From: an uncultured Acidobacteriota bacterium
GTDB taxonomy: Bacteria; Acidobacteriota; UBA6911
Direction of reading: 5' to 3'
Length of the DNA: 64,000 nt
Assembly: GCA_963809485.1 (NCBI GenBank)
Contig: CAWEJX010000008.1
Location: 288,001-352,000, forward strand
Made by a program: the position numbers and the translations under genes. A model generated the notes under the pieces. That model searched no databases and was not told where the DNA came from. It saw nothing but the letters and a program-made list of their open reading frames with translations. This document shows positions 1-13,554 of the stretch, piece by piece (within the stretch, counting starts at the first letter, position 1; every line of letters starts with the position of its first letter).

Positions 1-962
1 TAAATATTCGCGGCCACGCCTTGCTGGCTGGCATTATAGGCCTTTGGAAAAGCTTCGACCGGGATAGGAGGCTCCGGGTAGAAGAGGGCATCCGTGAGAT
101 AGGCGCCCACGTGATAGCCCAGGAAGTGGCTTCGGACCTGCAGGGCGTCGGCGCCCGCAGCCTGGAGGCATTTGGCGATTTCCCTTGCGTCCTCATGAGT
201 GAGGCACTGGCTGTCAGGAACGCCGATTCCCTGTCCCATCTCGATGCCGTTTATGATCATGGAAACGGGGAAGTCCCTCCCCAGGCGCTTTTTGATCTCC
301 CGAATTACTTCCATCGCGAAGCGGGCCCGGTTTTCGATGCTGCCGCCATACGCATCGGTGCGCTTGTTCCAGAAGGGAGAGAAGAAGTTGTGCAGAAGGT
401 GGCTGCTGGCTGCGTTGATGTCCACGCCGTCGAATCCCGCTTTCTGAGCCCGGACTGCTGCGCTGGCGAACTTGTCCACAATCTCCTGGATCTGCTCCAC
501 AGTGAGCGCCCGGGGCACTTCGGCGTGAAAATCCCCATCGGACTGGAAGCTGACGGGCGACGCTCCTATGGGCGGCCCGTCGTACATCGGCTGCGGCGCG
601 AAGGGGAGCTTGACCTGCCAGGGGCCGTCGTGATTCATCTGCATGAAAGTCGGGCAGTCATGTTTGTGAATGATTTTGACCAGTTCGCTGAGGCCCTGGA
701 TGTATTTGTCATCGTCGATGCGGTACCTTTCTTTCCAGCGCACGCCCAGCGGGTAATCGATGGTGGGCGATTCAACAATCAACAGCCCCACACCGCCTCT
801 GGCGATGCCTTCGTAAAATGCCAGGACTTCTTCCTGCATGTGCAGGTCGTCCTCGTGCCACATGAGCATGCCGGCGCCTGATTTGACGATTCGGTTTCTG
901 GTTTTTACCGACCCTATGCGGCCGGGTTCGAGGAGCTTTTGGTATTTCGAAAAAGTACTCAT
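1..962 (-). CDS. NADH:flavin oxidoreductase / Old Yellow Enzyme family (2,4-dienoyl-CoA reductase/enoate reductase-like); runs off the window edge
   Basis: Absent from the ORF track because its stop lies outside the window. Manual translation from ATG at 962 gives MSTFSKYQKLLEPGRIGSVKTRNRIVKS...FYEGIARGGVGLLIVE..., the typical OYE N-terminus; AAGGTG RBS upstream. Confidence 0.85.
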   Translation of the reverse strand, partial: MSTFSKYQKLLEPGRIGSVKTRNRIVKSGAGMLMWHEDDLHMQEEVLAFYEGIARGGVGLLIVESPTIDYPLGVRWKERYRIDDDKYIQGLSELVKIIHKHDCPTFMQMNHDGPWQVKLPFAPQPMYDGPPIGASPVSFQSDGDFHAEVPRALTVEQIQEIVDKFASAAVRAQKAGFDGVDINAASSHLLHNFFSPFWNKRTDAYGGSIENRARFAMEVIREIKKRLGRDFPVSMIINGIEMGQGIGVPDSQCLTHEDAREIAKCLQAAGADALQVRSHFLGYHVGAYLTDALFYPEPPIPVEAFPKAYNASQQGVAANI

Positions 963-982
963 TCGTTTCACCTTTTTGAGAG

Positions 983-1058: not shown

Positions 1059-2303
1059 CTAGATAACTCCAGATTCTCTCATGAATGCGATTTGGTTCTC
1101 TGTCAATCCCAGTTCGCGGTAGACTTCGGCATTATGCTCGCCGACCATGGGCGCACGGCATTTGACGGACGTCTCATTTTCCGAAGATCGCGCGAACTGC
1201 TTTGGATACGGGATCGTCGATTGTAGTTCCGGATGCTCCATTTGCGTCCAGAAACCTCTGGCGGCGAGGTTGGGGTCGCCGAGCAGGTCCTTCATACCCA
1301 TAAGCGGGCAAATCGAGATGCCTCTCGTCGTCGCCGCTTCGAGCGCTTCAGTTTTTGTGCGTGTCATGAAAAACTCTGCGATAGGCTGCGATATCCTGTC
1401 TATCAATTCCTGCGTTGCGGTGGCCATGTCGAAACTTTCCCATTCGTAGGACAGAAGGAATTCGTTGGCCATGCCCTTTTCATTCATCCATTGCACCAGC
1501 TGGCGGCAGGTCTTGGCTCCCTGCTGCCCGCCGATCATGAAGAAAAATATGAAGCCGTCTTTGCACGGCCAAACCTGCCGCTGCAGGGTCCCCCGGCTGC
1601 TGGTGCGAAAGGTCCCCACCCGGCCGAGAATCAGTTTCTCGAGCTCCCAGTGCGGTATCGTTTGAGCCAGGAACCAGGCAGCGCTGTGCTGCATGGAAAC
1701 GTCCACATGCTGCCCATCCCCCGTCTTTCTCCTGAAATGATGTGCGAGCATGGAACCTACGGCAGCGTCCGCTCCGGCGTGAAGGCATGCCTGCGGCATG
1801 CTTATGTTCACTGGCCGTCGGTCCGAATCGCCGGTCAGAAAAAGCTCTCCGGCCATCCCCATGAGGACAAGGTCGGAAGCCTGATAGTGACGGTACGGCC
1901 CTGTCTGGCCAAAGGGCGTAATCGACGTCAGGATGATATCCTTCCGGATACGGCACAACTCGGGGTAGCCGAAGCCAAGCCTGTCCATCTCGCCCGGCGC
2001 AAAAGATTCAATGACAAAGTCCGCGGTTTTAGCCAGGTCGCGGAAAATGCGCCTGCCTTCCTCTGTCCCCAGATTGAGCGTGATTGCGCGCTTGCTGCTG
2101 TTATAGGCAAACCAGTAAAGGCTTTTTTCGGGATCCGTCTGATCGTGCCAGAAAGGACCGATTTTGCGTGAGGGATCTCCTCCGGGCCTCTCAACCTTTA
2201 TGACATCCACGCCCAGTTCGGCCAGGATCTTCCCGCACAGAAATCCTTTTTCGTCGGTCAGATCCAGGGCTCGATACCCTTCCAGCATTCTGGTCCGCGG
2301 CAT
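1059..2303 (-). CDS. Class III CoA-transferase (CaiB/BaiF), BbsE-like subunit apparently lacking the catalytic Asp
   Basis: LAELGVDVIKVERPGGD, YNSSKRAITLNL, GQHVDVSM and APMVGEHN motifs; PQACLHAG at the position where active subunits have Asp. Confidence 0.9.
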   Translation of the reverse strand: MPRTRMLEGYRALDLTDEKGFLCGKILAELGVDVIKVERPGGDPSRKIGPFWHDQTDPEKSLYWFAYNSSKRAITLNLGTEEGRRIFRDLAKTADFVIESFAPGEMDRLGFGYPELCRIRKDIILTSITPFGQTGPYRHYQASDLVLMGMAGELFLTGDSDRRPVNISMPQACLHAGADAAVGSMLAHHFRRKTGDGQHVDVSMQHSAAWFLAQTIPHWELEKLILGRVGTFRTSSRGTLQRQVWPCKDGFIFFFMIGGQQGAKTCRQLVQWMNEKGMANEFLLSYEWESFDMATATQELIDRISQPIAEFFMTRTKTEALEAATTRGISICPLMGMKDLLGDPNLAARGFWTQMEHPELQSTIPYPKQFARSSENETSVKCRAPMVGEHNAEVYRELGLTENQIAFMRESGVI

Positions 2304-2307
2304 AATT

Positions 2308-2730
2308 TTATGCTTTCCCCCTGGCTTTCAGATCGGACCAGAGATCCGCAATGGCTGCCTTCACATCCGACGCGGGCGGGTATACACGGTCAAATCCCAG
2401 CTTCTTGAACTTTATCTCGTCGTCCTTGAAGTCGTGCTTCCCCACACCCAGGTTCCCGCCGATATAGAGAAGCACATCGTTCAGTCCGGCCTTGAGGCAG
2501 TTTTCCTTGAATCCCTGGACATCATTCTCGCCCATCCCATAAAGAGAACTCATCAGGATGGCATCCGCCTTGTTTTCCAGAGCGGCTTTGATGAACTCCT
2601 CCGGAGGCGTCAGGATTCCCAGCTCTATAACGTTGAACCCGCCTTCTCGGAGCGCCCGCGACAATATCTTTGTACCGATCACGTGGGCGTCCTTGCCCAC
2701 CGTCCCCGTCACTACAGTTGGATTAGCCAT
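2308..2730 (-). CDS. glmS: Cobalamin-binding small (sigma) subunit of a glutamate/methylaspartate mutase-like enzyme
   Basis: DAHVIG (DxHxxG), SSLYG, LYIGGNL and GFDRVYPP; 140 aa; adjacent to the E subunit. Confidence 0.9.
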   Translation of the reverse strand: MANPTVVTGTVGKDAHVIGTKILSRALREGGFNVIELGILTPPEEFIKAALENKADAILMSSLYGMGENDVQGFKENCLKAGLNDVLLYIGGNLGVGKHDFKDDEIKFKKLGFDRVYPPASDVKAAIADLWSDLKARGKA

Positions 2731-2773
2731 AATTGCGTTTCTCCTTACACCGCGATTGACGATCTTTCAGAAG

Positions 2774-2843
2774 GAGTTTCCAGTTCCCAGGTAAAAGGCT
2801 TCAGTCTTAAAACTGGCAACTGGAAACTTGGAACTGGGAACTC
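2774..2843. repeat. Inverted heptamer array (AGTTYCC / GGRAACT)
   Basis: gagtttccagttcccag ... aactggcaactggaaacttggaactgggaactc. Confidence 0.85.
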
Positions 2844-2845
2844 TT

Positions 2846-4309
2846 TTACGGTTTGCCGGTCAGCTGGCCTTTGCTGAAGGCCCAGAAATCCTGAACCAGG
2901 GCGTCATAATCCATCTGCCGGCCTTCCGCCTTTTCCCTTTCCGCTACTTTGGCGCGATGGAATTTCTTGACCTCTTCGGGGAATGGCAGATTGCCAAACT
3001 CCTTCCAACGTATGGCGCCGCGAACGTCCTTAATGCCCTGCACCAGGTCTTTCACTTGCCTGTTGGGGCTGAAACTTGAATCGAGGAATCCCTCTTCCAC
3101 CGATATCAGGCATCCAAGGACGACATCTCCGTCGCCCACTTCCAGGATTTTATTCATGAGCGCACGGATTTCGAGTTCGGCCATTGCCGCTTCTTCATCG
3201 ATTTCCTTCATTTTCAGGTCGATCTTCTGCCCGCGTATGACGTTCAGGAGCCAGTTGGTCGATTCGTAGCTTTGCGCGTGGGATTCTTCCGTGGGGATGC
3301 CCAGGGCTTCATCGATAGTTCTTATGGATACGGCCTCGACATTCCCGAGGGCGGCAACCATGGCTGTGTAATTGGGAAAAGCGAAGGCGGCTCCTACTCC
3401 CTGAGGCATGGGGAACAGCGGTGTATGCTGTGCGAAAACGCCTGCTATTTCCACGTCTTTGTAGCCAAATCTGTCCAGATACTCCCTCATCAGCCGGGGA
3501 GTCACCCGGATCCAGGCCAGGTCCTGCGCGAGATTGCCCATCAGATGAACGACGGAGGTTATGCTCTTGCCCCCCTGTTCGGCCACCATGAGCGCGTCTA
3601 CGATGGTGGTAGCCAGATTCACGGTCATCGGCTGCATGCCCGTAAGGATCCACCCATGATTGTCCGTGGAAATAATCACTCCCCGGTCGGCATAATAGCC
3701 GATCAGCCGCTGGACATACTGGCTTGCGGCCATGGATTGCTCCAGGGTTGCATACTTCTCGTAGGCTGCCCATGAGATAAAGGAAGATGCGGCGATTGCC
3801 GTCATGCCCGCAGCGAAAGCAATTTCGGTTGCCAGGGGATAGGATTTAAGGGAAAGCCTGGGATTAAAGGCTCCGCGATCGACGCTCTCGATGATTCTGC
3901 GCGTCTGCTTCACTCCGTAGTTGATGATCGGATATCCGTTCAGCAGGTTTTTGCCCGTCCTCCTCATCTCTGCCAGGAGGCTTTCCACTTTTTCGAAATC
4001 GAGCTGGCGCGTATAGCTGTCCGAGGTCACCGGGATGAAAGGCACTCCTGATTCAACCAGCTTTTTGGAGAGACTGATCTCGTCTTCAATCAATCCGGTG
4101 CCCGCCCTGGGAAATATGGCGGTTTTTCCCTCGTCGTGCAGCCTCCGGGCAACCTTATGCCAGTTCTTGGAGTCCGGCAGTTTCTTCTGATACTCGACCG
4201 CCTCAACAAGATCCACCTCACGGCCTGTCGGCCAGAGGGCAAGAACCGGTCCGCGCATTTTTAGAAAATCATTTTCATCAAGCCGCTTGTTTCTCAACTT
4301 GGTTTCCAT
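2846..4309 (-). CDS. glmE: Glutamate/methylaspartate mutase epsilon subunit-like protein with a divergent active site
   Basis: WPTG, PRAG, DSYTRQ, LLNGYP.NYGV, AEQG, GNLAQD and EALGIPT motifs; 487 aa. Confidence 0.85.
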   Translation of the reverse strand: METKLRNKRLDENDFLKMRGPVLALWPTGREVDLVEAVEYQKKLPDSKNWHKVARRLHDEGKTAIFPRAGTGLIEDEISLSKKLVESGVPFIPVTSDSYTRQLDFEKVESLLAEMRRTGKNLLNGYPIINYGVKQTRRIIESVDRGAFNPRLSLKSYPLATEIAFAAGMTAIAASSFISWAAYEKYATLEQSMAASQYVQRLIGYYADRGVIISTDNHGWILTGMQPMTVNLATTIVDALMVAEQGGKSITSVVHLMGNLAQDLAWIRVTPRLMREYLDRFGYKDVEIAGVFAQHTPLFPMPQGVGAAFAFPNYTAMVAALGNVEAVSIRTIDEALGIPTEESHAQSYESTNWLLNVIRGQKIDLKMKEIDEEAAMAELEIRALMNKILEVGDGDVVLGCLISVEEGFLDSSFSPNRQVKDLVQGIKDVRGAIRWKEFGNLPFPEEVKKFHRAKVAEREKAEGRQMDYDALVQDFWAFSKGQLTGKP

Positions 4310-4312
4310 CTA

Positions 4313-4400
4313 TTCCCCCAGTTCCCAGTTCCCAGTTCCCAGTTTCCGGTTTCCCTGTTTTGATTTCAACTCGAAACTCGAAACTGGGAACTTGGAACTA
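4313..4400. repeat. Inverted heptamer array (AGTTCCC x3 / AACTCGA, AACTGGG)
   Basis: cagttcccagttcccagttcccagtttccggtttccc ... aactcgaaactcgaaactgggaacttggaacta. Confidence 0.9.
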
Positions 4401-4401
4401 T

Positions 4402-5628
4402 TTAGATCACTTCCTCATCCTTGAGCTGTTGTATCTTGTCCCAGTCGTAGCCGCAGACATCCATCAGGACTTCTTCCGTATTCTGACCGAAACAGGGCGC
4501 AAAGCCGTCCACCGTCACCGGAGTTCCGCTGAAATTGACCGGATTTCCAACCATCTTGATGGCGCCCAGGGACGGATGATTGATTTCCGCGATGTAGCCA
4601 TTCTGCAGCGCCTGTTCGTCATTGGCCAGATCCGTCGGTCTCAGGACAGGGGAATAGGCGATTCCTTCGCCCTTCTCATCCAGAATTTTCATCCATTCCT
4701 GGCGTGTTTTGGTCTTGAAAACCCCTTCTATGATAACCAGCAGTTCCCTGAAATTTTCGCGCCGTCGGGCGGCATCGGAATATTTGTCATCCTTCTCGAG
4801 GTGCTGAATGCCCAGGGCATCGCAGAAAGCCGGCCAGAACCTGTCGGCCTGCGGCTCCGAAAGCAGCAGCCACTCCCCGTCGGCGCACTCGAAATGGTTT
4901 GCCATCGGGTTTTTCAGGGATCGCCTCGAGGGTCTGGGAATCTGGCGGCCTCTGAGGAGCGCCGTATTGAGGTTATAGGCCTGCAAATGTATCCCCGATC
5001 CAAGAAGCGAAACTTCTACCTGCTGGCCTGTTCCCTGTCTGTCCCTCGCGACCAGTGCGGCCAGTATTCCATAAACCAGAAGGGTGCCGGTCATCTGGTC
5101 GAACACGGGTCCGCCAATCTGCGCGGGAGGCGTGTCCGGCTCTCCACCGAGCGCATACATGATCCCCGATCGCGCCTGTGCCACGCTGTCAAAAGCGCGC
5201 CGGTTGCTTTCCGGCCCAGCAAGTCCATAGCCGGTCGCAAGCCCATAAACAAGCTTTGGATTGTATTTCTTCAGGGTCTCGAAGTCGATCTTAAGTTTTG
5301 CAATCGCCGACTGCGTGAAGTTGGTGCAGAAAACATCGGCTTTGGATACCAGCTCATAAAGCAGCTGCCTGCCTTTTTCTTTCTTCAGGTCCAGCGTGAT
5401 GCTCTTTTTATTGCGGTTTGCGGTTTCGAACAGTATGTTTTCGCCATTGGGCAGCGTCATGGAGGAACCAAAAACCGCGGACGTGCCCCGCGATGGATCG
5501 CCCTTCTCGCGGTCCTCTATCTTAATGATTTCGGCTCCCAAATCGCCCAGCATGTAGCATGCCGTGGGCGCGCTGAGATAGCCCCCACATTCGACGACCC
5601 GTATGCCCTGCAATGGTCCACCACTCAT
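4402..5628 (-). CDS. Class III CoA-transferase (CaiB/BaiF), BbsF-like catalytic subunit
   Basis: LGDLGAEIIKIE, NRNKKSITLDL, catalytic Asp in GPVFDQ, GQQVEVSL and APCFGQNT; alternative start at 5640. Confidence 0.9.
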   Translation of the reverse strand: MSGGPLQGIRVVECGGYLSAPTACYMLGDLGAEIIKIEDREKGDPSRGTSAVFGSSMTLPNGENILFETANRNKKSITLDLKKEKGRQLLYELVSKADVFCTNFTQSAIAKLKIDFETLKKYNPKLVYGLATGYGLAGPESNRRAFDSVAQARSGIMYALGGEPDTPPAQIGGPVFDQMTGTLLVYGILAALVARDRQGTGQQVEVSLLGSGIHLQAYNLNTALLRGRQIPRPSRRSLKNPMANHFECADGEWLLLSEPQADRFWPAFCDALGIQHLEKDDKYSDAARRRENFRELLVIIEGVFKTKTRQEWMKILDEKGEGIAYSPVLRPTDLANDEQALQNGYIAEINHPSLGAIKMVGNPVNFSGTPVTVDGFAPCFGQNTEEVLMDVCGYDWDKIQQLKDEEVI

Positions 5629-5644
5629 ATCATCTCCCATCTCA

Positions 5645-5760
5645 AAATTACGAATTACGAATTACGAATGACGAATTTAAACAATCTACTTGGCTATCTA
5701 TCATAAAATGCAAACTGCAGATGTTGATTCAATTCGTCATTCGTAATTCGTAATTCGCAA
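5645..5760. repeat. Inverted heptamer array (AATTACG / CGTAATT)
   Basis: aattacgaattacgaattacgaatgacgaatt ... aattcgtcattcgtaattcgtaattcgcaa. Confidence 0.9.
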
Positions 5761-7461
5761 TTACGTTGTGAGCCAGCGGAGCATCTGAAGCTCCTCCGGA
5801 CTCGGTCTCGGCACTTCTTCGACGACGGGTGCAGTCTTCAGATCCCACCCGCAGTTATTTTTTATTTCTTTGATCCGTTCTTCCAGTTTTCGAGCCTGCG
5901 GATCCGGGAAGCATGCCACCAGATACAGCTCGTCCTCCGGGTCCGGTTTCCTGAAGATGCCCATAGTCGAAACCACCGTTGTTACGGCATGCCCGCGGCC
6001 GGTCACGTATGCAAGCTGGTCCACGAACCGATCCCTGGACTGATCCAGGCATAGGATGGCCTCGCGGGCGTTGAGCGCATCGTTGACTCCTCCCGAGCCG
6101 ACGAGGAATTTCCCCTTGGAGGTTTTTGTGGAATTGATGTTCCCGAACCGGTCCATCTGGCCTGCGCCGAGGATGCTCAGACAGCGGCTGTTCTCGCCCC
6201 CGACAAAAACACCCTGCATCATGACAGTATCCGTCAGGATTTTTGAACTGCGGACCCCGGCTTCGCTGGCCAGGATGGATTCCCCGGGAACGGGCGTATA
6301 GCCGATCTGACCGTTTCCGGTTCCCAATTCAAATCCCGCCGACTTCAGCTGATAATAGGCCAGAAATGCGGCCGTCGCGGCTGCGCCCGCTCCGGCGAGC
6401 ACCATTTTGTGCCCTTTGCTGTCCACGCTGTTGCGGATTTCCCGGGCCAACGCAATAAGCATCATCTCCTTGGGCTGGAATTCCGTGTCCTGTTGAGGCG
6501 ACGGGACAAACTCGAATCCCGTTGTCACCCGCCGGGACTTCTCTTTAAGCTCGTCGATTCGCTGCTTTCCAAGCTTGCTCAAATAGTGTTCGTGATCCAG
6601 ACAATCAAGGATCCATTCCCTGATCCAATCATCCAGTGCGGGGCCGCTTGCGGAAGCTTCATAGAGAGCATTGAGAAAATCTACATCCTTTTCGTAGGGA
6701 TCGATATCGCTGATGCCTGGATTGGCCAGGGAGAAAGGATGAAGTCCCAGAGGCGCAGGCGCCACAGCCTGAACGGCATAGGCAGGGATTTTGACCAGCG
6801 CCGCATATTTTTTTATGAATTCTGCAGGCACGATCTTCTCAACCGTTACGACCACTCCCCCTTTGCTGGCAAGGGAGCCCCAAACGTCTTCGCCGTAGGG
6901 AGCAGGCAGAATCGTGTTGCCATCGAGGTCCGCAGCACAGCCGTGGACAATGGAGATATCGGGCAGAAGAGCGCTCGCCAGGCCGACTTGGACTCCGGAT
7001 CCAAACGGATCGTCCATTGTCGTAAACGCTGTCGCGTTATCCTCGGCAATGCTGCTACCGAGAACGGATCGGGTGGGCATGAACGGAACGCCGAAAGCAC
7101 CCGCCATAAGCCGCTGCTGGAGAGAGTTCAGCGACCAGTTTTCCATCTCGATCTGGCCGCTTTCGTAAGCGTTCTGAATAACCTTACTCGGGCGTCCGGT
7201 GCCGGAAATATTGGCACACACCGAACAGATGAGCTTCTTCACCAGTCTGCAGTGAACCAGATTGAGCGCATGTCCCGTTACGGTGCTTTGGATCAGCGTG
7301 AATTCGGGATTTTTTCCATGATATTGCCGGATTATGTCGCAAATGGCGGCGCTGGCTCCCCCGATGCCCGAGGCGATATGCAGCTTCATCCCGGGCTTCA
7401 CGAAGCGTTTTACAGCTTCGCGCAACTCCAGCAGTTTCCCCTGTTCCTTAAGCGCAGTCAT
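5761..7461 (-). CDS. Fused alpha/beta class I CoA-transferase-fold protein (glutaconate CoA-transferase GctAB-like)
   Basis: Alpha half: RLMAGAFGVPFMPTRS.LGS, PDISIVHG..AD.DGN, VTVEKIV, AP.G.HP. Beta half: LGAGQMDRFGNINST, LVGSGGVND, RFVDQLAYVT. Confidence 0.85.
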   Translation of the reverse strand: MTALKEQGKLLELREAVKRFVKPGMKLHIASGIGGASAAICDIIRQYHGKNPEFTLIQSTVTGHALNLVHCRLVKKLICSVCANISGTGRPSKVIQNAYESGQIEMENWSLNSLQQRLMAGAFGVPFMPTRSVLGSSIAEDNATAFTTMDDPFGSGVQVGLASALLPDISIVHGCAADLDGNTILPAPYGEDVWGSLASKGGVVVTVEKIVPAEFIKKYAALVKIPAYAVQAVAPAPLGLHPFSLANPGISDIDPYEKDVDFLNALYEASASGPALDDWIREWILDCLDHEHYLSKLGKQRIDELKEKSRRVTTGFEFVPSPQQDTEFQPKEMMLIALAREIRNSVDSKGHKMVLAGAGAAATAAFLAYYQLKSAGFELGTGNGQIGYTPVPGESILASEAGVRSSKILTDTVMMQGVFVGGENSRCLSILGAGQMDRFGNINSTKTSKGKFLVGSGGVNDALNAREAILCLDQSRDRFVDQLAYVTGRGHAVTTVVSTMGIFRKPDPEDELYLVACFPDPQARKLEERIKEIKNNCGWDLKTAPVVEEVPRPSPEELQMLRWLTT

Positions 7462-7527
7462 ATCAAAACCTTCATTTTAAAAAATTCAGCTTACTTTAGT
7501 TTGGGAAATTTCGCACCCATATGATTG

Positions 7528-7689
7528 GAGTTCCCAGTTTCGAGTTCCCAGTTTCCAGTTGGATATAAATTGCTTTTGAATGGAGATTTTGAACCGGGAT
7601 TAAGCCTTACAGGATTTACTGCATGGGGGTGATGCCAGTTCCCAGTTTCCAATCCAAACTGGGAACTGGAAACTGGGAACTGGAAACTC
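7528..7689. repeat. Inverted heptamer arrays enclosing a ~75 bp spacer
   Basis: gagttcccagtttcgagttcccagtttccagtt ... ccagttcccagtttcc aatcc aaactgggaactggaaactgggaactggaaactc. Confidence 0.9.
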
Positions 7690-7696
7690 AAAAGGT

Positions 7697-9190
7697 CTAA
7701 CCGAGCTTGCCTTGCCAGGGGCTGGCCGGTGTTCCGACCAGGTCGATCCAAACGTTCTTCATCATGCTGTATTCATCGAGGACCATGATGGAATTTTCCT
7801 TGCTGTGCCCCGACTCTTTGCATCCGCCCCAGGGGCATTCAAAAACAATGGACAGGTGCTGGTTCAGCCACACGGTGCCCACTTTGAGCTGCTTGGTCAT
7901 GACCAGGCCCAGCCGTATATCCTTGGTCCAGATCGATGCGCACAAACCGAAACGGGAGTCGTTGGCGATAGCCACAGCCTCTTCAGGAGTCCTGAATTTT
8001 GCCAGGGCAACCACCGGGCCGAAGACTTCCTCCTGCATGATCTCCGATTTGGGATCGCAGTCGCCAAAAATCGTGGGGGGAACGAAATATCCATCTTTCG
8101 TTTCCGGCGTATTGGGACGTTCACCGCCCAGCAGCAGTTTTGCGCCGGATCTCCTGGCACGCTCAACGAAGCGCTCGATGTTGTCCCTGTGGCCTTTGTA
8201 AGCGACAGGCCCGATCATAGTCTCAGGATTCAGAGGATCCCCCACACGCAGCAGCTTCGCGGCAGCAACAAATTTTTCGGCGAATTCGTCGTACACCGAC
8301 TCGTGAACAAGGTACCGGCTCGAGGCGCCGCAGTTCTGGCCGGAATTAAAGAAACCGCCCCAGATGGCCCCTTCGACGGTGGCCTTCATATCCGCGTCGG
8401 GAAGCACGATGAATGGATTTTTGCCCCCCAGCTCGCAAGCGACCGGTTTCACTGCAGCGCTGGCCAGAGCCAGGATCCGTTTCCCGGTTTCCGAATCGCC
8501 GGTAAAATTGATTTTGGCAATATAGGGGTGTTTGACCATGGCTTCTCCAACGGTAGATCCGGGACCAGACACGATATTAAGCACGCCCGGCGGGAATCCG
8601 GCCTTGGCGGCAAGCTCGCCAAGCTTCAGAACCGTAAGGGGAGCGCAGGAAGCAGGCTTCACCACGGCGGTGTTCCCCATCATCAACGCCGGGGTAATTT
8701 TGGATATTGCCGTAACAAGAGGGAAATTCCATGGCGTGATCAAACCCACAACCCCCAAAGGCTGGCGGATAGTAAAGGACATCGCCTGCGGGCCGACGGG
8801 CAGCGTTTTACCTGTTACCGCCCTTGCGACGCCGGCCATGAATTCGAAATGCTGCGCATCAAAGGTCATATCGAAATTGGTTGTTTTGAAAATTGGCCCG
8901 CCGTATTGCATGGTTTCCAATTTGGCCCACTCGTCCCGTTGAGCCCGGAGCAGCTCTGCCATCTTGAAGAAAATGGCAGCCTTATCGGTCGGGGATGTTT
9001 CCGCCCAGGCAGGCGCAGCCTTCCAGGCCGCCTCAGCCGCCCGGTCGACCTCTACCGAACTGCATTTGGGAGCGAGGCCTACGACCTTGCCATTTGCAGG
9101 ATTGATCACTTCCATCGTTTCCTTGGTAGATGCTTCGCAAAGCTCCCCATTGATTAACACCCGGTAATCTGAATTCATGACCGCCCCCAT
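7697..9190 (-). CDS. NAD(P)-dependent aldehyde dehydrogenase
   Basis: ITPWNFP, FTGDSETG, ELGGKNP, catalytic Cys in SGQNCG, EEVFGPV; possible start at 9178. Confidence 0.95.
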   Translation of the reverse strand: MGAVMNSDYRVLINGELCEASTKETMEVINPANGKVVGLAPKCSSVEVDRAAEAAWKAAPAWAETSPTDKAAIFFKMAELLRAQRDEWAKLETMQYGGPIFKTTNFDMTFDAQHFEFMAGVARAVTGKTLPVGPQAMSFTIRQPLGVVGLITPWNFPLVTAISKITPALMMGNTAVVKPASCAPLTVLKLGELAAKAGFPPGVLNIVSGPGSTVGEAMVKHPYIAKINFTGDSETGKRILALASAAVKPVACELGGKNPFIVLPDADMKATVEGAIWGGFFNSGQNCGASSRYLVHESVYDEFAEKFVAAAKLLRVGDPLNPETMIGPVAYKGHRDNIERFVERARRSGAKLLLGGERPNTPETKDGYFVPPTIFGDCDPKSEIMQEEVFGPVVALAKFRTPEEAVAIANDSRFGLCASIWTKDIRLGLVMTKQLKVGTVWLNQHLSIVFECPWGGCKESGHSKENSIMVLDEYSMMKNVWIDLVGTPASPWQGKLG

Positions 9191-9195
9191 ATCTT

Positions 9196-9228
9196 GAGTT
9201 TCCAGTTCCCAGTTTCAAGTTCCCAGTT
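9196..9228. repeat. Heptamer array, left arm flanking the four-helix-bundle gene
   Basis: gagtttccagttcccagtttcaagttcccagtt. Confidence 0.85.
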
Positions 9229-9263
9229 ACCTGCCGGTTCATTTTAGACTGGACACTGGTAAT

Positions 9264-9639: not shown

Positions 9640-9689
9640 GTTAGATACAGTTACTGGTTCGAAGTAGCCGGCTTCCATCAGAGCTATAC

Positions 9690-9725: not shown

Positions 9726-9726
9726 T

Positions 9727-10488
9727 TTAATCGGCGACGATGCCTCCATCCACGGGCAGCGCGGCGCCCGTAATGTAAGAGGCTTCATCCGAGCACAGGA
9801 ACATGGCTGCGGCGGCTACCTCTTCAGGTTCGCCTATCCTTCCCATGGGAACTTTCTGGTCCATTGCCTTGACCATTTCCGGATTCGCGGCTACCAGGCT
9901 TTCATTCATGCCCGTCCGGATGGGGCCCGGGCAGACACAGTTAACCCGAATGCCTTTTCGCGCAAACTCCAGCGCGGTCGATTTCGTGATTCCCACAACT
10001 CCGTGCTTGCTGGCCGGATAGGCCGGATTGCTCGGCGCTCCAACCAGTCCCGCGGCCGAAGACGTGTTCACAATGGCGCCTTTCCCTAGCTTGAGCATTT
10101 GCGGGATCTCATATTTCATGCACAGCCATACGCTCTTGAGATTCACATTGATCATCTCTTCCCAGTCCGCGGCTGTGAAATCGGCCATGGAAGCAAATAC
10201 CTTATGAATCCCGGCATTGTTGAAAGCGCAGTCAAGCTTCCCGTAAGTTTCGACCGTTTTCTCTACTAAAGCTTTAACATCTGCCTCCGAAGATACGTCC
10301 GTTTTTACAAAAAATGCGTCGCCACCGGCATCCTTGATCCGGCGTAGAGTTTCTTCTCCCCGCTTGACATCGACGTCGGCGATTGCCACCTTTGCTCCTC
10401 TTTGAGCAAAGCCTATTGCGGCCGCTCTGCCGATGCCATAAGCCCCCCCAGTCACGATCACAACCTTGTTTCGATACTCGTTTGGCAT
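9727..10488 (-). CDS. Short-chain dehydrogenase/reductase (classical SDR, probably NAD-dependent)
   Basis: TGGAYGIG, NNAG, YPASK, VDGG; likely start MPNEY at 10488 with GGAG RBS. Confidence 0.93.
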   Translation of the reverse strand: MPNEYRNKVVIVTGGAYGIGRAAAIGFAQRGAKVAIADVDVKRGEETLRRIKDAGGDAFFVKTDVSSEADVKALVEKTVETYGKLDCAFNNAGIHKVFASMADFTAADWEEMINVNLKSVWLCMKYEIPQMLKLGKGAIVNTSSAAGLVGAPSNPAYPASKHGVVGITKSTALEFARKGIRVNCVCPGPIRTGMNESLVAANPEMVKAMDQKVPMGRIGEPEEVAAAAMFLCSDEASYITGAALPVDGGIVAD

Positions 10489-10639
10489 TTCTCTATCTCC
10501 TCTTTTCGGGGTCTCTATTTCCGGTTCCCGCTCCTCGCCGGCAATCTTGGTTGTCCTCAATGGAAAAGCGGAAACGGGAAACCTGGAATGTCTATTCTTA
10601 GGGATGTCTTCAGCATTAGTCAACAACCGAAGAGCCCGT

Positions 10640-11947
10640 CTAATACTTCCCGGGTAGATAAGTTGCCATCTCCGGGAAAACAAAGAGCAGGATGAGGCAG
10701 AGGACAAGCGTAATCAGGAACGGCAGGACTCCTTTGTATATTCGGCCGATGGATTCCTGCGTGATGTTTTTTACAACAAAAGCCGCTACGGCCACAGGAG
10801 GCGTGATCACCCCGATCATCATCGTCACCCCAAGGACGATGGAAAACCAGATGGGGTCATATCCGAGCTTGACGGCCACAGGGAAAAAAATAGGCGTTGC
10901 TAAAATCATGAATGCGATGTCGTCGACGAAGGATCCGCCCAAAAGATAGATGAGAAGGATGACCACAAGGACCAGATGGGAGGGCAGAGGCAGGCTGAGC
11001 GTCCAGGAAGCCACGACGCCCGGTATTTTGGAAATGACGATGAAGTGGCCGAGCACCGCAGATCCCCCGATCAGCATAAGAACCATGCAACCCATGCGCA
11101 GCGATTCGCGTACGGATTTTGCGAACCCCCGGCAATCCAGGTCCCGCTTTAAAAGGGCAAGCAGGAGAACGGCAATAGCGCCGACGCTGCCCGCTTCCGT
11201 TGGCGTAAAATAGCCCGCCAGCATGCCTCCCACCGTAACGACAAAAATCAGCAGCGGTCCGAAAATTTGAGGCACCGACCGGGCGCGTTCTCTCCATCCC
11301 GCAGCCTCTGCCCTGGGGGCCAACGAGGGATTCATACGGCACCACAGGGCGATCGTCACAAGGAATAATGCGGCGATCAACAGACCGGGGACGATGCCCG
11401 CAAGAAACAATTTCCCGATCGATTGATCCGTGATCATGGCAAGGATTATGAGAGTTCCGCTCGGAGGCAGGAGGAAGCCCAGAGTCCCCACACTTGCGAC
11501 TACACCGGTGGATAATTTCCTGCTGTAGCCGTATTTGTCCATCTCGGGAATGGCAACGCTGGAAAAGGTCGCTGTGGTTGCCAGCGAAGATCCTGAAATA
11601 GCCTTGAAAATTGTCGCGCCGACGACCGTCGCCATGGCCAGCCCTCCGGGCACATGGCCCACGAATTTCCGGGATGTCCCGTACATCTTTTCCGCAATCC
11701 CGGAATTGAAGGCCACCTGACCCATAAGGACAAAGAGCGGGATCACCACAAAAGCATAGGAGGCAAAGGCATCATAAAAGTCTTTAGCCAAAAGGTCGAC
11801 GGCGGCAGGAAAGGACCTCAGGATGCCGAATCCGACGAACCCGACAAAAGTCATGGCGAAAGCCAGTTCAATCCCCGTCAGGAAGAGCGCCAGCAGCAGG
11901 CCGAGACCGATACATCCAATCAGCACCTCGTTCATAGCAGGATTCAC
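10640..11947 (-). CDS. dctM: TRAP transporter large permease
   Basis: IPLFVLMG, AISGSSLAT, GTLGFLLPPS, FTPTEAG, ITPPV; highly hydrophobic. Confidence 0.93.
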   Translation of the reverse strand: MNPAMNEVLIGCIGLGLLLALFLTGIELAFAMTFVGFVGFGILRSFPAAVDLLAKDFYDAFASYAFVVIPLFVLMGQVAFNSGIAEKMYGTSRKFVGHVPGGLAMATVVGATIFKAISGSSLATTATFSSVAIPEMDKYGYSRKLSTGVVASVGTLGFLLPPSGTLIILAMITDQSIGKLFLAGIVPGLLIAALFLVTIALWCRMNPSLAPRAEAAGWRERARSVPQIFGPLLIFVVTVGGMLAGYFTPTEAGSVGAIAVLLLALLKRDLDCRGFAKSVRESLRMGCMVLMLIGGSAVLGHFIVISKIPGVVASWTLSLPLPSHLVLVVILLIYLLGGSFVDDIAFMILATPIFFPVAVKLGYDPIWFSIVLGVTMMIGVITPPVAVAAFVVKNITQESIGRIYKGVLPFLITLVLCLILLFVFPEMATYLPGKY

Positions 11948-12432
11948 CGTTCGCGTTTTTGTATCGTTCCCAGCAATTCGGAAAACAGGACCAGGGTTTG
12001 TATCAGGAAGGCGCCGCCTACGGCATAGGCCACGTAGTAAAAAGGAAAAGCCAAGACAGCCGTTACCTCGCCCGAAATCTTCAGACGGACGCCCATTTGT
12101 ATCGTGCCATAGCCGGCAAGAAGAAATATCCCGATGCCCATGCCTCGAGTAATCACCGCAAGCAAAAGATTGGACTTTGCCGAGAGTTTTGCCGTTAAAA
12201 GATCCGTGCTGACGTGCCCTTTCGCCATGGAAGTTGCCGGAAGAGCCAAACCGATGATCAATCCACCCGCGAGGGAGACAATCTCATAGGTCCCCGGGAC
12301 CGGGTGGCCGAAAAGCCTCCCGACAATGTCCGCTCCTATCAGCAGCATCACACCGATGAGGGCTGCCCCCGCGACAAATTCCATCCATGCGCTCAAATGG
12401 CCGGAGGCCTGGCTGAAAGACAATCGCATCAT
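11944..12432 (-). CDS. dctQ: TRAP transporter small permease
   Basis: Four TM segments, DIVGR..G.PVPGTYE and GHV motifs; lies between dctP and dctM. Confidence 0.88.
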   Translation of the reverse strand: MMRLSFSQASGHLSAWMEFVAGAALIGVMLLIGADIVGRLFGHPVPGTYEIVSLAGGLIIGLALPATSMAKGHVSTDLLTAKLSAKSNLLLAVITRGMGIGIFLLAGYGTIQMGVRLKISGEVTAVLAFPFYYVAYAVGGAFLIQTLVLFSELLGTIQKRER

Positions 12433-12534
12433 TCTCTCTCCCCGCGACTCGATCGCGGTTTTCTTAGCCTGAAGACATGTCAACCCGAAAGCCTGATTCC
12501 ACAGTCTATAGGATTCATAAATTGCCGATACAAA

Positions 12535-13554
12535 TCATCGCTGCATGTTTTGCTGCACCCAGTCTTTGCAGAACTGCAATGCCTCCATCGCCGGCAAACC
12601 TCTGGCGGATTTCTCCTGTACCAAAGCTTCGTAGAGAGGCAATACGGCCCTCTCCCATCTTTTCTCTTCTTCGCTGCTTAGATAAATGGAGACGTGATCT
12701 TTTGCCGACCACTTTCTTATGGTGTTCTGATCCTTCTCGTCCCAGATCCGGCTTAGCTTTTCCGCGTATTCATCGGACATTTGGTTGATTATGTCCTGCA
12801 TTTCGACGGGAAGGCTGTTCCACTTGGCTTTGTTCATAAAAACGAGACCGGGGGCGCCCACAGAGGCATAGCGACTCACGGTGGTGTAATGCAGGATTTC
12901 GCCCCATTTAAGGGTCTCCAGCGAATCCCAGGCCGCCACCACGCCATCCACGATCCCTTTACGCAACGCATCGTAGGTATCGCTGGTCGGGATAACGATC
13001 GAGACAGCGCCCAGAGCTTCCAGGACCTTCGCTGCGTTGCCCCCCAGGCACCGAATCTTCATGCCCGATAAATCTTCAAGTTTCCTCACCGGTCTCTGGG
13101 TATGGAGCAGGCCGGGACTGGCGCTCAGGAAAAAAAGCACTTTCACCTGCTCCAGTTCCATGGGCTTGAAAGCACGAAAAAAGCCGTTGGACAACCGCGT
13201 CATCATAAAGGAGCTTCCGATGCCCAGAGGCTGTTCCATGACTTCAGTCAGCGGGAAACGGCCGGGGGTCAAGCCCATAGGCCCAAATCCGATGTCCGCG
13301 ATGCCCGTAGTCACGGAATCGTAGATTTGGGTTGCAGGAGTGAGAATTCCTCCAGGGTAATAGGTAGCCTGGATGCTCCCTCCGCTCCTTCGGCCCAGAT
13401 CCCTGCACCATTCTTCCAGCACCTGGCTGAGTTTGTCGTGGGCAGGCAGGATGCCGGAAAATTCGAGTTTGGTTATAGGTTTCTCCGGCCGGCAGGCTTG
13501 TCCGGCAAGCAGCGCAACGCAACAAAGCACCCGCAGGATATGTCTCATGCTCAT
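12535..13554 (-). CDS. dctP: TRAP transporter substrate-binding protein
   Basis: Signal peptide, YYPGGIL, GRFPLTEV, LEDLSGMKIR, MNKAKWNSLP. Confidence 0.9.
   Translation of the reverse strand: MSMRHILRVLCCVALLAGQACRPEKPITKLEFSGILPAHDKLSQVLEEWCRDLGRRSGGSIQATYYPGGILTPATQIYDSVTTGIADIGFGPMGLTPGRFPLTEVMEQPLGIGSSFMMTRLSNGFFRAFKPMELEQVKVLFFLSASPGLLHTQRPVRKLEDLSGMKIRCLGGNAAKVLEALGAVSIVIPTSDTYDALRKGIVDGVVAAWDSLETLKWGEILHYTTVSRYASVGAPGLVFMNKAKWNSLPVEMQDIINQMSDEYAEKLSRIWDEKDQNTIRKWSAKDHVSIYLSSEEEKRWERAVLPLYEALVQEKSARGLPAMEALQFCKDWVQQNMQR

What the first reader, a model, noticed from the sequence alone, without database searches (positions are those of the whole stretch)
2308..4309. B12 glutamate-mutase-like enzyme with a re-wired active site: candidate new carbon-skeleton mutase
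Seen: a complete S (DxHxxG) plus E pair. Established: clostridial GlmE grips the two carboxylates with Arg66/Arg100/Arg149 and binds the alpha-amino group with Glu171 (TSNEGGG). By eye alignment to the recalled GlmE sequence, the three Arg are kept (PRAG, YTRQ, NPRL) and so is Tyr181. TSNEGGG becomes TAIAASS (Glu171 to Ala), RHG becomes RLS, and REPFG becomes TDNHG. No methylaspartate ammonia-lyase or glmL lies beside the pair, although the operon continues past the window edge. Inference: the substrate is a dicarboxylate without an alpha-amino group, so this is an undescribed AdoCbl reaction.
Basis: partly seen in the sequence, partly recalled or inferred. Interest (0 to 1): 0.82.

Follow-up and report, generated by a model that had tools for sequence, protein, structure and literature searches.

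The report
B12 mutase with non-glutamate pocket
An uncultured soil and wetland acidobacterium carries a vitamin-B12 enzyme built like glutamate mutase but lacking the residue that holds glutamate's amino group, and it sits in a conserved operon of CoA-transferases, so it probably rearranges a different, still unidentified dicarboxylic acid.

Summary
Window 2846-4309(-) encodes a 487-aa GlmE-type subunit and 2308-2730(-) a 140-aa B12-binding S subunit with DxHxxG. Alignment to C. cochlearium GlmE (E 7e-97) and an AlphaFold model (TM 0.96, rmsd 1.6 A) keep Arg66/100/149 and Tyr181. They put Ala at Glu171, Leu-Ser at His150-Gly151 and TDNHG at REPFG.

This pocket is invariant in 120 of 120 close homologues. 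The enzyme belongs to a clade with support 1.0 (85 sequences), and none of its 80 metagenome loci has a methylaspartase hit. The genome (95.7% complete) has no methylaspartase or MutL hit. In contrast, 4 of 4 canonical-GlmE genomes tested in the same phylum have methylaspartase beside glmE.

The operon, syntenic in 7 Acidobacteriota MAG loci, is TRAP-SDR-ALDH, then two CoA-transferases, the mutase, then a benzylsuccinate-type CoA-transferase pair, a flavin reductase, a crotonase, a PrpD-like protein and an SDR.

Most likely this is an AdoCbl mutase for a non-amino dicarboxylate, converting a glutarate-type acid to a methylsuccinate-type acid. The substrate is not identified.

This scan has reported the same theme on other DNA (Dehalococcoidales, Burkholderiales, Acidobacteriota). 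My literature searches found no description of it.

The parts
2846..4309 (-). GlmE-type catalytic subunit of an AdoCbl mutase (487 aa, P0001). Key codons: R68 4106-4108, R101 4007-4009, R151 3857-3859, the beta4 loop T170-Y183 3761-3802 (A173 at 3791-3793), and T215-G219 3653-3667.
   Evidence: PF06368 418 bits. TIGR01503 358.9 bits, below its 390.1 cut-off. 1cb7_B E 6.7e-97. Model TM 0.96 to 6h9e_B and 1cb7_B. Pocket invariant in 120 of 120 homologues.
2308..2730 (-). B12-binding S subunit (140 aa, P0002). The DxHxxG motif is at codons 14-19 (window 2674-2691).
   Evidence: PF02310. NF002612 191.2 bits against 110 and TIGR01501 167.7 against 135.8. 1i9c_A E 1.4e-43.
4402..5640 (-). Family-III CoA-transferase 'a' (412 aa, P0005), directly upstream of the mutase. 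It is the most conserved gene of the operon (92-94% identity in the MAG loci).
   Evidence: PF02515 366.6 bits. Best PDB matches are a formyl-CoA transferase (10uh, E 4e-53) and succinate--hydroxymethylglutarate CoA-transferase (9br6, E 1.2e-49). Synteny.
5761..7461 (-). Fused family-I CoA-transferase (566 aa, P0006).
   Evidence: PF01144 81.4 bits. The nearest ESM-Atlas cluster carries the automatic name 'Glutaconate CoA-transferase family protein', score 0.97; this is a lead only. Synteny.
1059..2303 (-). Family-III CoA-transferase 'b' (414 aa, P0003), most like one subunit of benzylsuccinate CoA-transferase.
   Evidence: PF02515. 9fn0_A E 1.3e-65; the next hit is E 2.8e-40.
3..971 (-). N-terminal FMN (OYE) domain of a 701-aa flavin/FAD reductase. 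It continues beyond the window edge (L002 18866-20000).
   Evidence: PF00724. Pyr_redox_2 in the C-terminal part. The joined translation is 701 aa without a stop. PDB matches include OYEs, 2-naphthoyl-CoA reductase 6qkg and 2,4-dienoyl-CoA reductase 1ps9.
7697..9190 (-). Aldehyde dehydrogenase (497 aa, P0007).
   Evidence: PF00171 542.8 bits. It reaches no NCBIfam equivalog cut-off. A 58%-identical ALDH lies near the sister-clade mutase in L024.
9727..10707 (-). Short-chain dehydrogenase SDR1. The ORF as listed is 326 aa, but the SDR domain begins near residue 75, so the true start is probably later.
   Evidence: PF13561 and PF00106. NF004818 350.7 bits against 336.
10640..13554 (-). TRAP transporter: DctM 10640-11947, DctQ 11944-12483, DctP 12535-13554.
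   Evidence: PF06808, PF04290 and PF03480. The module lies upstream of the operon in L006 and L009 as well.

Best explanation
The pair is an intact adenosylcobalamin (AdoCbl)-dependent carbon-skeleton mutase of the GlmE/GlmS type, but it is not a glutamate mutase.

Shown:
- It keeps the fold, the His-on B12-binding S subunit, the three arginines and Tyr181 that hold two carboxylates in GlmE, and the Glu330 equivalent.
- The part of the pocket that holds glutamate's amino group (Glu171, His150, Tyr177, the REPFG strand) is replaced. The new set is Ala173, Ala174, Leu152, Ser179, Trp180 and Thr-Asp-Asn-His-Gly, and it is invariant in the clade.

Inferred:
- The substrate is a dicarboxylate HOOC-CH(X)-CH2-CH2-COOH in which X is not an amino group. 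The enzyme interconverts it with the branched isomer HOOC-CH(X)-CH(CH3)-COOH by the usual radical 1,2-shift.
- Gene order suggests the flow. A TRAP transporter, SDR1 and ALDH make a dicarboxylate from an imported hydroxy- or oxo-acid.
- Two CoA-transferases upstream of the mutase resemble glutaconate-type and succinate-hydroxymethylglutarate-type enzymes. They would handle the glutarate-type acid.
- The mutase acts on the free acid.
- A two-subunit benzylsuccinate-type CoA-transferase then activates the substituted-succinate product.
- An OYE-type flavoenzyme, a crotonase and SDR2, with a PrpD/IRG1-like enzyme, process the product in a benzylsuccinate-like beta-oxidation.

My split over X (inference only): H (glutarate/methylsuccinate) about 0.25; methylene or methyl (2-methyleneglutarate or 2-methylglutarate) about 0.25; hydroxy or oxo about 0.15; something else about 0.35. 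The direction of flux is open.
For: Fold and cofactor parts are intact. Ala sits at position 171 in a gap-free register, backed by a TM 0.96 superposition. The new pocket is invariant in 120 of 120 homologues of 81-98% identity, against a mean column conservation of 0.90, so it is under selection and not decayed.

The E subunit falls below the NCBIfam equivalog cut-off (358.9 against 390.1). Pfam scores in the phylum are bimodal: five genomes score 705-741 bits and five, including G000, score 418-466.

G000 has no PF07476 and no PF13941 hit at 95.67% completeness. As a control, 4 of 4 tested Acidobacteriota genomes with high-scoring GlmE have methylaspartase directly beside glmE. One of these (L026) was read in full and shows glmS-mutL-glmE.

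The operon order is kept in 7 of 7 Acidobacteriota MAG loci, as far as each contig reaches.

A clade of 85 sequences (82 ORFs from 80 metagenome loci plus P0001, P0127 and P0128) has FastTree support 1.0. In those loci:
- 0 of 80 have a methylaspartase BLASTP hit.
- 33 of 80 have family-III CoA-transferases (23 of the 44 loci with at least 4 kb beside glmE).
- Gene order is E-then-S in 41 loci and S-then-E in 1.

CoA-transferases b and c best match the two different chains of benzylsuccinate CoA-transferase, 9fn0_A (E 1.3e-65) and 9fn0_B (E 4.7e-80). Aldehyde oxidation recurs beside the mutase in other branches: ALDH here and in L024, AOR directly upstream in L066 and L070. The genome can make and use AdoCbl enzymes: it has a PduO-type adenosyltransferase and a methylmalonyl-CoA mutase. 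No nitrogen-handling enzyme is in the operon.
Against: There is no biochemical evidence of any kind. The roles of Glu171, the arginines, Tyr181 and Lys326/Glu330 in GlmE are recalled from the literature (Reitzer 1999, Gruber 2001, Madhavapeddi and Marsh 2001), and I could not re-read these papers here.

I had no model coordinates and no ligand, so which of the changed residues actually touch the substrate is not shown.

Rearranging glutarate (X = H) lacks the radical stabilisation that the amino group gives. That counts against the simplest candidate.

The ALDH scores highest against betaine-, aminobutyr- and phenylacet-aldehyde dehydrogenase models, not against succinate or glutarate semialdehyde types. 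The nearest solved TRAP binding proteins are, by recall, aromatic-acid binders. Both hint at a substrate other than a plain C5 acid.

The operon has no thiolase or lyase to finish the proposed beta-oxidation. The two HpcH-type lyases of the genome lie on other contigs.

Three related loci have Glu at position 171 and still share this context, so the Glu171 argument is not sufficient on its own.

The methylaspartase screen of the 80 loci used one reference sequence and BLASTP at E 1e-6, and many of the loci are short.
Confidence: 0.65

Rival explanations
1. It is still a glutamate (methylaspartate) mutase. The amino group would be held by another residue, for example Asp216 or His218. The enzyme would then serve a route that does not need methylaspartase, such as biosynthesis of 3-methylaspartate.
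For: The fold, the arginine claw, Tyr181 and the S subunit are all canonical. Sources label the homologues 'methylaspartate mutase epsilon subunit'. Asp216 aligns with the acidic Glu214 of GlmE.
Against: Glu171 is Ala in 120 of 120 clade members, and His150, Tyr177 and Arg213 are also changed. The E subunit is below the equivalog cut-off. The genome has no methylaspartase hit, and no aminotransferase, ammonia-lyase or adenylating enzyme is in the operon. Asp216 is not a new acidic residue, because canonical enzymes already have Glu there. Canonical enzymes of the same phylum do keep methylaspartase next door.
Confidence: 0.06
2. The substrate is a dicarboxylyl-CoA thioester rather than a free acid. 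That would make this a GlmE-fold analogue of the acyl-CoA mutases, and it would explain the four CoA-transferases around it.
For: The mutase genes are bracketed by CoA-transferases on both sides in this clade and in related branches. The pocket side that faces C2 has been opened at several positions: Glu171Ala, Tyr177Ser, Arg213Thr.
Against: All three carboxylate-binding arginines and Tyr181 are kept in almost all of the 85 clade members: every complete sequence keeps the three arginines, and 3 sequences differ at Tyr181. This argues for two free carboxylates. The model matches GlmE at TM 0.96 but acyl-CoA mutases only at about 0.5. There is no extra domain or insertion that could form a CoA channel (487 aa against 483). 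CoA-transferases on both sides are also what a free-acid mutase inside a CoA-ester pathway would need.
Confidence: 0.12
3. The substrate is a bulkier, possibly aryl- or alkyl-substituted succinate or glutarate (benzylsuccinate-like). The operon would then be a side-chain degradation route for plant- or lignin-derived acids.
For: CoA-transferases b and c are closest to the two benzylsuccinate CoA-transferase chains. The crotonase has hydroxycinnamoyl-CoA hydratase-lyase among its matches. The ALDH scores 427 bits on a phenylacetaldehyde dehydrogenase model. The pocket gains Phe177, Trp180, Leu152 and Ile172. The nearest solved TRAP binding proteins bind aromatic acids (the ligands are recalled, not shown by the call).
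Against: All of these matches are far below family cut-offs. Several changes fill space rather than create it (Gly172Ala, Gly173Ser, Gly174Ser, Asn178Trp). No aromatic-ring enzymes are in the operon. Pocket volume could not be measured.
Confidence: 0.1
4. The pair is a decayed or non-catalytic relic, for example a B12-binding or regulatory protein.
For: No MutL-type reactivating chaperone is found in this genome, although 20 of the 80 related loci have one.
Against: Both reading frames are intact. Conservation is very high across 120 homologues, with 203 invariant positions that include the pocket. Operon synteny is conserved. The B12 motifs and the Glu330 equivalent are kept.
Confidence: 0.02

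Closest known systems
Glutamate (methylaspartate) mutase GlmS/GlmE, EC 5.4.99.1, Clostridium cochlearium (PDB 1CCW, 1CB7, 1I9C, 6H9E)
   Same: Two-subunit architecture. The E fold matches at TM 0.96 with 35% identity. The S subunit has DxHxxG (E 1.4e-43). Arg66/100/149, Thr94, Tyr181 and Glu330 are kept.
   Different: Substitutions: Glu171 to Ala, His150-Gly151 to Leu-Ser, Tyr177 to Ser, Asn178 to Trp, REPFG to TDNHG, Lys326 to Arg. It is below the equivalog cut-off. Gene order is E-S instead of S-L-E. The genome has no MutL and no methylaspartase hit, whereas canonical enzymes of the same phylum have both.
2-Methyleneglutarate mutase, EC 5.4.99.4, Eubacterium barkeri (nicotinate fermentation)
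   Same: It is the one known AdoCbl mutase that rearranges a non-amino dicarboxylate, and its substrate differs from glutamate only at C2. An apolar C2 pocket and a neighbouring enoate-reductase-type enzyme would fit such a substrate (inference).
   Different: By recall it is a single polypeptide with a C-terminal B12 domain, whereas here S is a separate gene. Its sequence relation to this protein could not be tested: no sequence was on hand and the papers are not held. The genome has no PrpF-family hit, the family of 3-methylitaconate isomerase by recall. The nicotinate pathway does not use CoA esters (recalled).
Benzylsuccinate beta-oxidation module (BbsEF CoA-transferase, BbsG, BbsH, BbsCD) of anaerobic toluene degradation
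   Same: CoA-transferases b and c match the two chains of the solved benzylsuccinate CoA-transferase, 9fn0_A and 9fn0_B. The gene order is transferase, flavoenzyme, crotonase, SDR, which mirrors the Bbs reaction order (recalled).
   Different: An OYE/FAD reductase stands where the acyl-CoA dehydrogenase BbsG would be. There is no BbsAB-type thiolase. A PrpD/IRG1-like protein is added. No glycyl-radical synthase is in this operon.
Acyl-CoA mutases (methylmalonyl-CoA mutase family)
   Same: AdoCbl carbon-skeleton mutases that work inside CoA-ester pathways. The B12 domain is related (TIGR00640 58.4 bits for S).
   Different: The catalytic subunit is a GlmE-type barrel; the fold match to MCM is only TM about 0.5. 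The genome has a separate true MCM on the same contig.

Membership tests
Glutamate mutase GlmES (EC 5.4.99.1) | GlmE catalytic fold (PF06368) over the full length | tested here: met
   418 bits, profile positions 1-441 of 441. TM 0.96 and rmsd 1.6 A to 6h9e_B and 1cb7_B.
Glutamate mutase GlmES (EC 5.4.99.1) | Separate S subunit with the base-off/His-on motif DxHxxG | tested here: met
   D14-x-H16-x-x-G19. NF002612 191.2 bits against 110. 1i9c_A E 1.4e-43.
Glutamate mutase GlmES (EC 5.4.99.1) | Arginine claw Arg66/Arg100/Arg149 plus Tyr181 for the two carboxylates (roles recalled) | tested here: met
   R68, R101, R151 and Y183, invariant in 120 of 120 homologues.
Glutamate mutase GlmES (EC 5.4.99.1) | Glu171, which binds the substrate amino group (role recalled) | tested here: not met
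   Ala173 aligns with Glu171 in a gap-free stretch. It is Ala in 120 of 120 homologues. The structural superposition supports the register.
Glutamate mutase GlmES (EC 5.4.99.1) | Score above the curated equivalog cut-off for subunit E (TIGR01503) | tested here: not met
   358.9 bits against a cut-off of 390.1.
Glutamate mutase GlmES (EC 5.4.99.1) | Methylaspartate ammonia-lyase in the operon or genome | tested here: not met
   No PF07476 hit in G000 (95.67% complete). None in the 20 kb beyond the window edge. 0 of 80 related loci have a hit. As a control, 4 of 4 canonical genomes have it beside glmE.
Glutamate mutase GlmES (EC 5.4.99.1) | GlmL/MutL chaperone gene between S and E | tested here: not met
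   No PF13941 hit in G000. It is present in the canonical locus L026 and in 20 of 80 related loci.
Glutamate mutase GlmES (EC 5.4.99.1) | Interconversion of L-glutamate and threo-3-methylaspartate | not testable with these tools
   This needs an enzyme assay.
2-Methyleneglutarate mutase (EC 5.4.99.4) | Sequence relationship to the E. barkeri enzyme | not tested
   No reference sequence was available from a tool, and the relevant papers are not held.
2-Methyleneglutarate mutase (EC 5.4.99.4) | Partner 3-methylitaconate isomerase (PrpF family, by recall) | tested here: not met
   No PF04303 hit in G000.
Benzylsuccinate-type (BbsEF-like) heteromeric family-III CoA-transferase (for the flanking genes b and c) | Two different family-III subunits, each closest to a different chain of the solved enzyme | tested here: met
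   P0003 matches 9fn0_A at E 1.3e-65, and the L002 17552-18829 protein matches 9fn0_B at E 4.7e-80. The two genes are adjacent in many related loci. That they form a heteromer is inferred.

The most novel reading that the evidence does not exclude
This is a mutase that interconverts glutarate (or a 2-alkyl- or 2-methylene-glutarate) with methylsuccinate. It would be the first AdoCbl enzyme to rearrange a dicarboxylate that has no radical-stabilising heteroatom at C2. It would feed a benzylsuccinate-like beta-oxidation and define a previously unseen anaerobic route for C5/C6 dicarboxylic acids. That route is widespread in wetland and soil Acidobacteriota, and in variant forms in other phyla. 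The wider clade, with its hypervariable beta4 loop, would then be a whole family of substrate-diversified B12 dicarboxylate mutases.
Probability: 0.22. Interest if true: 0.88.

Novelty: new variant of a known kind. Interest (0 to 1): 0.7.

Why it matters
By recall, only a handful of AdoCbl carbon-skeleton mutases are known: glutamate, 2-methyleneglutarate, and the acyl-CoA mutases. Each new one has taught radical enzymology something and has opened a pathway.

Here a large clade under purifying selection is labelled 'methylaspartate mutase' in databases. It has a rebuilt substrate pocket and a fixed, unexplained operon in abundant soil and wetland bacteria.

Among the 114 full-length cluster representatives nearest to this protein, only 32 have Glu at position 171. 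Much of Pfam PF06368 is therefore probably mis-annotated.

Finding the substrate would add a new B12 reaction. It would explain an anaerobic dicarboxylate pathway in peat and wetland carbon turnover, and it would correct many annotations.

Tried and rejected
Literature. Eight full-text searches found nothing that describes a GlmE-type mutase with another substrate. The terms included 'glutarate mutase', 'methylsuccinate mutase', '2-hydroxyglutarate mutase', 'glutamate mutase-like', and 'methylaspartate mutase' together with Acidobacteri*. The single 'glutarate mutase' hit was seen only as a search listing, of a Pseudomonas B12 paper. One search, meant to re-read the GlmE residue roles, returned only unrelated papers. 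I read passages only of PMC13450708, PMC2667541 and PMC7617358, and none bears on the question. The E. barkeri nicotinate paper is not held. Paper supplements were not consulted.

Expression. No RNA holder was listed for window 1059-7461, and read laying was not used.

Substrate clues that stayed inconclusive:
- NCBIfam scans of all operon proteins reached no informative equivalog.
- The PrpD-like protein had no NCBIfam match at E 1e-10. It is nearest to IRG1, cis-aconitate decarboxylase and IDS-epimerase structures rather than to 2-methylcitrate dehydratase.
- The TRAP binding protein has only moderate PDB matches (best E 4.6e-44).

Other points:
- Two ORFs after SDR2 (L002 13439-14104 and 12353-13438) have no Pfam match and are not conserved in the MAG loci, so I left them out of the operon.
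- The genome-contig scan reached only close relatives (7 loci).
- Greedy ORF picking failed in the high-GC loci L024 and L025 and was replaced by tblastn.
- I did not run complex prediction, because E+S is a textbook pair.
- I could not measure pocket geometry or dock ligands, because model coordinates are not exposed.
Full report
**What is there.** On the minus strand of the window, ORF 2846-4309 encodes a 487-aa protein (P0001) and ORF 2308-2730 a 140-aa protein (P0002).
- P0001 matches Pfam Met_asp_mut_E over the whole profile (418 bits). P0002 matches the B12-binding domain.
- P0002 passes both NCBIfam equivalogs for methylaspartate mutase subunit S. P0001 scores 358.9 bits on TIGR01503, below its cut-off of 390.1.
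- P0002 carries D14-x-H16-x-x-G19, S61-x-L63 and G91-G92. It aligns with the solved S subunit at E 1.4e-43.
- The genome has only this one PF06368 gene.

**The active-site claim.** phmmer aligns P0001 residues 4-487 with residues 2-482 of C. cochlearium GlmE (1cb7_B/1ccw, E 6.7e-97), and there is no gap between Arg149 and Tyr181. Counting along that alignment gives the following.
- Kept: Arg66, Thr94, Arg100, Arg149, Tyr181 and Glu330, as R68, T95, R101, R151, Y183 and E334.
- Changed: His150-Gly151 become Leu-Ser. TSNEGGG becomes TAIAASS, so Glu171 is Ala173. Tyr177-Asn178 become Ser-Trp. REPFG becomes TDNHG. Lys326 becomes Arg.
- An AlphaFold2 model built on a 39-sequence alignment (mean pLDDT 94.5, pTM 0.94) superposes on 6h9e_B and 1cb7_B with TM 0.96 and rmsd 1.6 A over 486-487 columns. 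The next folds, lysine aminomutase and methylmalonyl-CoA mutase, are near TM 0.5.

The sequence register therefore holds in three dimensions, and no Glu sits at position 171. The functional roles of these GlmE residues are recalled from the primary literature. A search meant to re-read them found nothing useful.

**Is the changed pocket real biology?** Yes.
- A word-indexed search found 868 proteins at E <= 1e-20 among 8000 scored candidates. The 120 best are 81-98% identical, and the few that carry an organism name are Acidobacteria MAGs.
- In an alignment of P0001 with the 119 listed relatives of at least 460 aa, several positions are invariant: R68, T95, R101, R151, L152, S153, A173, A174, F177, I178, S179, W180, A181, A182, Y183 and T215-D-N-H-G219. 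Mean column conservation is 0.90.

This is the signature of a selected, working site.

**Place in the family.**
- An exhaustive HMMER search of 1.84 billion cluster representatives gave 786 hits at E <= 0.001 and 161 at E <= 1e-30. The nearest are only 49% identical: P0127, a 642-aa E-S fusion found in Oscillospiraceae, and P0128. All others are at 40% or less.
- 114 of the 150 listed representatives are at least 420 aa long. Of these, 32 have Glu at position 171, 55 have all three arginines, 30 have both, and 25 have the arginines without Glu171. This sample is biased towards relatives of the query.
- A metagenome scan returned 80 loci that are 46-97% identical to P0001.
- In a FastTree tree of 106 sequences, their 82 E-type ORFs plus P0001, P0127 and P0128 form one clade with support 1.0 and a stem of 0.48. 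It excludes all canonical-signature sequences.
- Within this clade the arginines, Thr94, Tyr181 and an x-D-x-[HD]-G strand are nearly constant. The beta4 loop (positions 169-178) differs from branch to branch. That pattern is what a family with one chemistry and several substrates would show.
- Three loci (L091, L096, L103) have Glu at position 171 but otherwise share the clade's features and context.

**Context.** The window is G000:C8:288001-352000, and I read 20 kb beyond the edge. The minus-strand operon, in order, is:
- DctP-DctQ-DctM (TRAP transporter)
- SDR1
- ALDH
- a fused family-I CoA-transferase
- family-III CoA-transferase a
- GlmE-like, then GlmS-like
- family-III CoA-transferase b
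- a 701-aa OYE/FAD reductase that crosses the window edge
- family-III CoA-transferase c
- a crotonase
- an MmgE/PrpD-family protein
- SDR2

There is no methylaspartase and no GlmL, either there or anywhere in the genome (95.67% complete, 7.32% contamination). The order from the family-I transferase to SDR2 is kept in all 7 Acidobacteriota MAG loci found, as far as each contig reaches. Two of them (L006, L009) also show the TRAP-SDR1-ALDH part.

A control within the phylum: 10 of 401 sampled genomes, including G000, have PF06368 over the cut-off.
- Five score 705-741 bits.
- Four of those five were tested, and all four have methylaspartase directly beside glmE. One of the four (L026) was read in full and shows glmS-mutL-glmE.
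- The five low scorers (418-466 bits) include this gene.

**Across the 80 metagenome loci**, by BLASTP against my reference set:
- 0 have a methylaspartase hit.
- 33 have family-III CoA-transferases (23 of the 44 loci with at least 4 kb beside glmE).
- 20 have MutL, 12 a crotonase, 10 a PrpD-like protein, 13 the OYE-type reductase and 11 the family-I transferase.
- 5 have a glycyl-radical enzyme, and 7 match its activase.
- Gene order is E-then-S in 41 loci and S-then-E in 1. Twelve loci have an E ORF of at least 600 aa; those checked are E-S fusions.
- In the branches at 48-57% identity, transferases b and c are adjacent and are followed by the crotonase and often the PrpD-like gene. MutL is present there and lost in the window's branch.

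**What the neighbours resemble.**
- Transferase b best matches chain A of the solved benzylsuccinate CoA-transferase (E 1.3e-65) and transferase c best matches chain B (E 4.7e-80), each far ahead of the next hit. They probably form a BbsEF-like heteromer for a 2-substituted succinate.
- Transferase a is nearest to a formyl-CoA transferase and to succinate-hydroxymethylglutarate CoA-transferase.
- The family-I enzyme falls next to clusters auto-named glutaconate CoA-transferase, which is a lead only.
- The PrpD-like protein is nearer to IRG1, cis-aconitate decarboxylase and IDS epimerase than to 2-methylcitrate dehydratase.
- The reductase has the architecture of 2,4-dienoyl-CoA and 2-naphthoyl-CoA reductases.
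- Aldehyde oxidation next to the mutase recurs. There is an ALDH here and a 58%-identical one near the sister-clade E-S fusion in L024, which sits with a glycyl-radical enzyme, its activase and an Fe-ADH. Aldehyde:ferredoxin oxidoreductases lie directly upstream of glmE in L066 and L070.

**Most likely mechanism.** It is shown that this is an intact GlmES-type B12 enzyme with two carboxylate sites and a rebuilt C2 side. The rest is inferred.
- I infer that it performs the glutamate-mutase type 1,2-shift on HOOC-CH(X)-CH2-CH2-COOH, with X not an amino group, giving HOOC-CH(X)-CH(CH3)-COOH or the reverse.
- The gene order fits a flow in which a glutarate-type acid, made by SDR1 and ALDH or released from its CoA ester by the two upstream transferases, is isomerised as the free acid.
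- The substituted-succinate product is then activated by the BbsEF-like pair. It is processed by the flavoenzyme, crotonase and SDR2 in a benzylsuccinate-like beta-oxidation.
- The apolar replacements (Ala173, Ala174, Ile172, Leu152, Trp180) favour a small non-polar X (H, methyl or methylene). The new invariant Asp216, Asn217 and His218 leave room for a hydroxy or oxo group.
- Against X = H is the poorer radical stabilisation.
- Against the classical 2-methyleneglutarate route, there is no PrpF-family isomerase in the genome.
- Against a simple C5 reading, the ALDH and the TRAP binding protein look more like those for amino- or aryl-aldehydes and aromatic acids.
- No thiolase or lyase closes the pathway inside the operon. 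Two HpcH-type lyases lie elsewhere.
- The cofactor supply is plausible: the genome has a PduO-type adenosyltransferase and a true methylmalonyl-CoA mutase.

**Comparison and novelty.** The enzyme works like glutamate mutase but fails four tested membership features: Glu171, the equivalog cut-off, methylaspartase and GlmL. I file it as a new variant of a known kind, namely a GlmES-family AdoCbl mutase with a different, unidentified substrate.

My literature searches found no description of such an enzyme.

Earlier reports of this scan describe the same theme in other genomes: Dehalococcoidales, Burkholderiales, another Acidobacteriota genome, and a branch linked to glycyl-radical enzymes. I re-derived the points I use from my own calls. 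Those notes are not independent evidence.

What this window adds:
- the best-conserved branch, with 120 near-identical pockets
- a complete 15-gene operon
- a same-phylum control with canonical operons
- the assignment of transferases b and c to the two benzylsuccinate CoA-transferase chains
- the recurring aldehyde-oxidation step

**Verdict.** The substrate and the direction of flux are open. Interest is 0.70.

Noticed in passing
window 7635-7683: A perfect 17-nt hairpin lies in the gap between the ALDH and the family-I CoA-transferase genes. Its arms are CCAGTTCCCAGTTTCCA and TGGAAACTGGGAACTGG, built from CCAGTT(T/C)-like 7-base units. It resembles the foldback repeat elements that an earlier report of this scan described in the gaps of a related acidobacterial operon.
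   Followed up: partly
L024 (G300:C47) 6776-16432: The 48%-identical sister enzyme is an E-S fusion of 637 aa. It sits with a glycyl-radical enzyme (842 aa), its activase, an Fe-ADH and two ALDHs. The same GRE-plus-mutase pairing recurs in L080, L081, L087, L092 and L093, and L094 has the activase and an Fe-ADH. The GRE is nearest to dehydratase/eliminase-type structures.
   Followed up: partly
L029 239-13130; L070 2620-9939: Other branches of the clade place hydantoinase/oxoprolinase A and B subunits upstream of the mutase. L029 also has a gluconolactonase-like gene, and L070 has an aldehyde:ferredoxin oxidoreductase directly upstream. This hints at ring-opened lactam or lactone substrates.
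   Followed up: no
L091, L096, L103: One sub-branch has Glu at the position of Glu171 (TTAEAG, TTFEGC). It lacks His150 and REPFG, and it sits with SDR, MutL, BbsEF-like transferases, a crotonase and PrpD, without methylaspartase.
   Followed up: partly
window 15735-16744 and 17599-19428: A full aldehyde:ferredoxin oxidoreductase (609 aa) lies next to a 246-aa ORF that matches only the middle of the AFOR_C domain. The short ORF is probably a broken or frameshifted second copy.
   Followed up: no
L024 versus the window: G300 is listed as the same genus as G000, but its contig has 68% G+C against 51-57% here. G000 also has 7.3% contamination. The genus assignment or the binning of one of them may be off.
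   Followed up: no
L004, L007, L008, about 1900-6800: In three MAG loci about 5 kb of DNA without a match to this operon's proteins separates the ALDH (or its expected place) from the family-I CoA-transferase. In the window these two genes are only 235 bp apart.
   Followed up: no
L006, L009: Several operon genes, including glmE in L009, appear split into two or three ORFs in these two MAGs. I suspect assembly frameshifts rather than pseudogenes.
   Followed up: no
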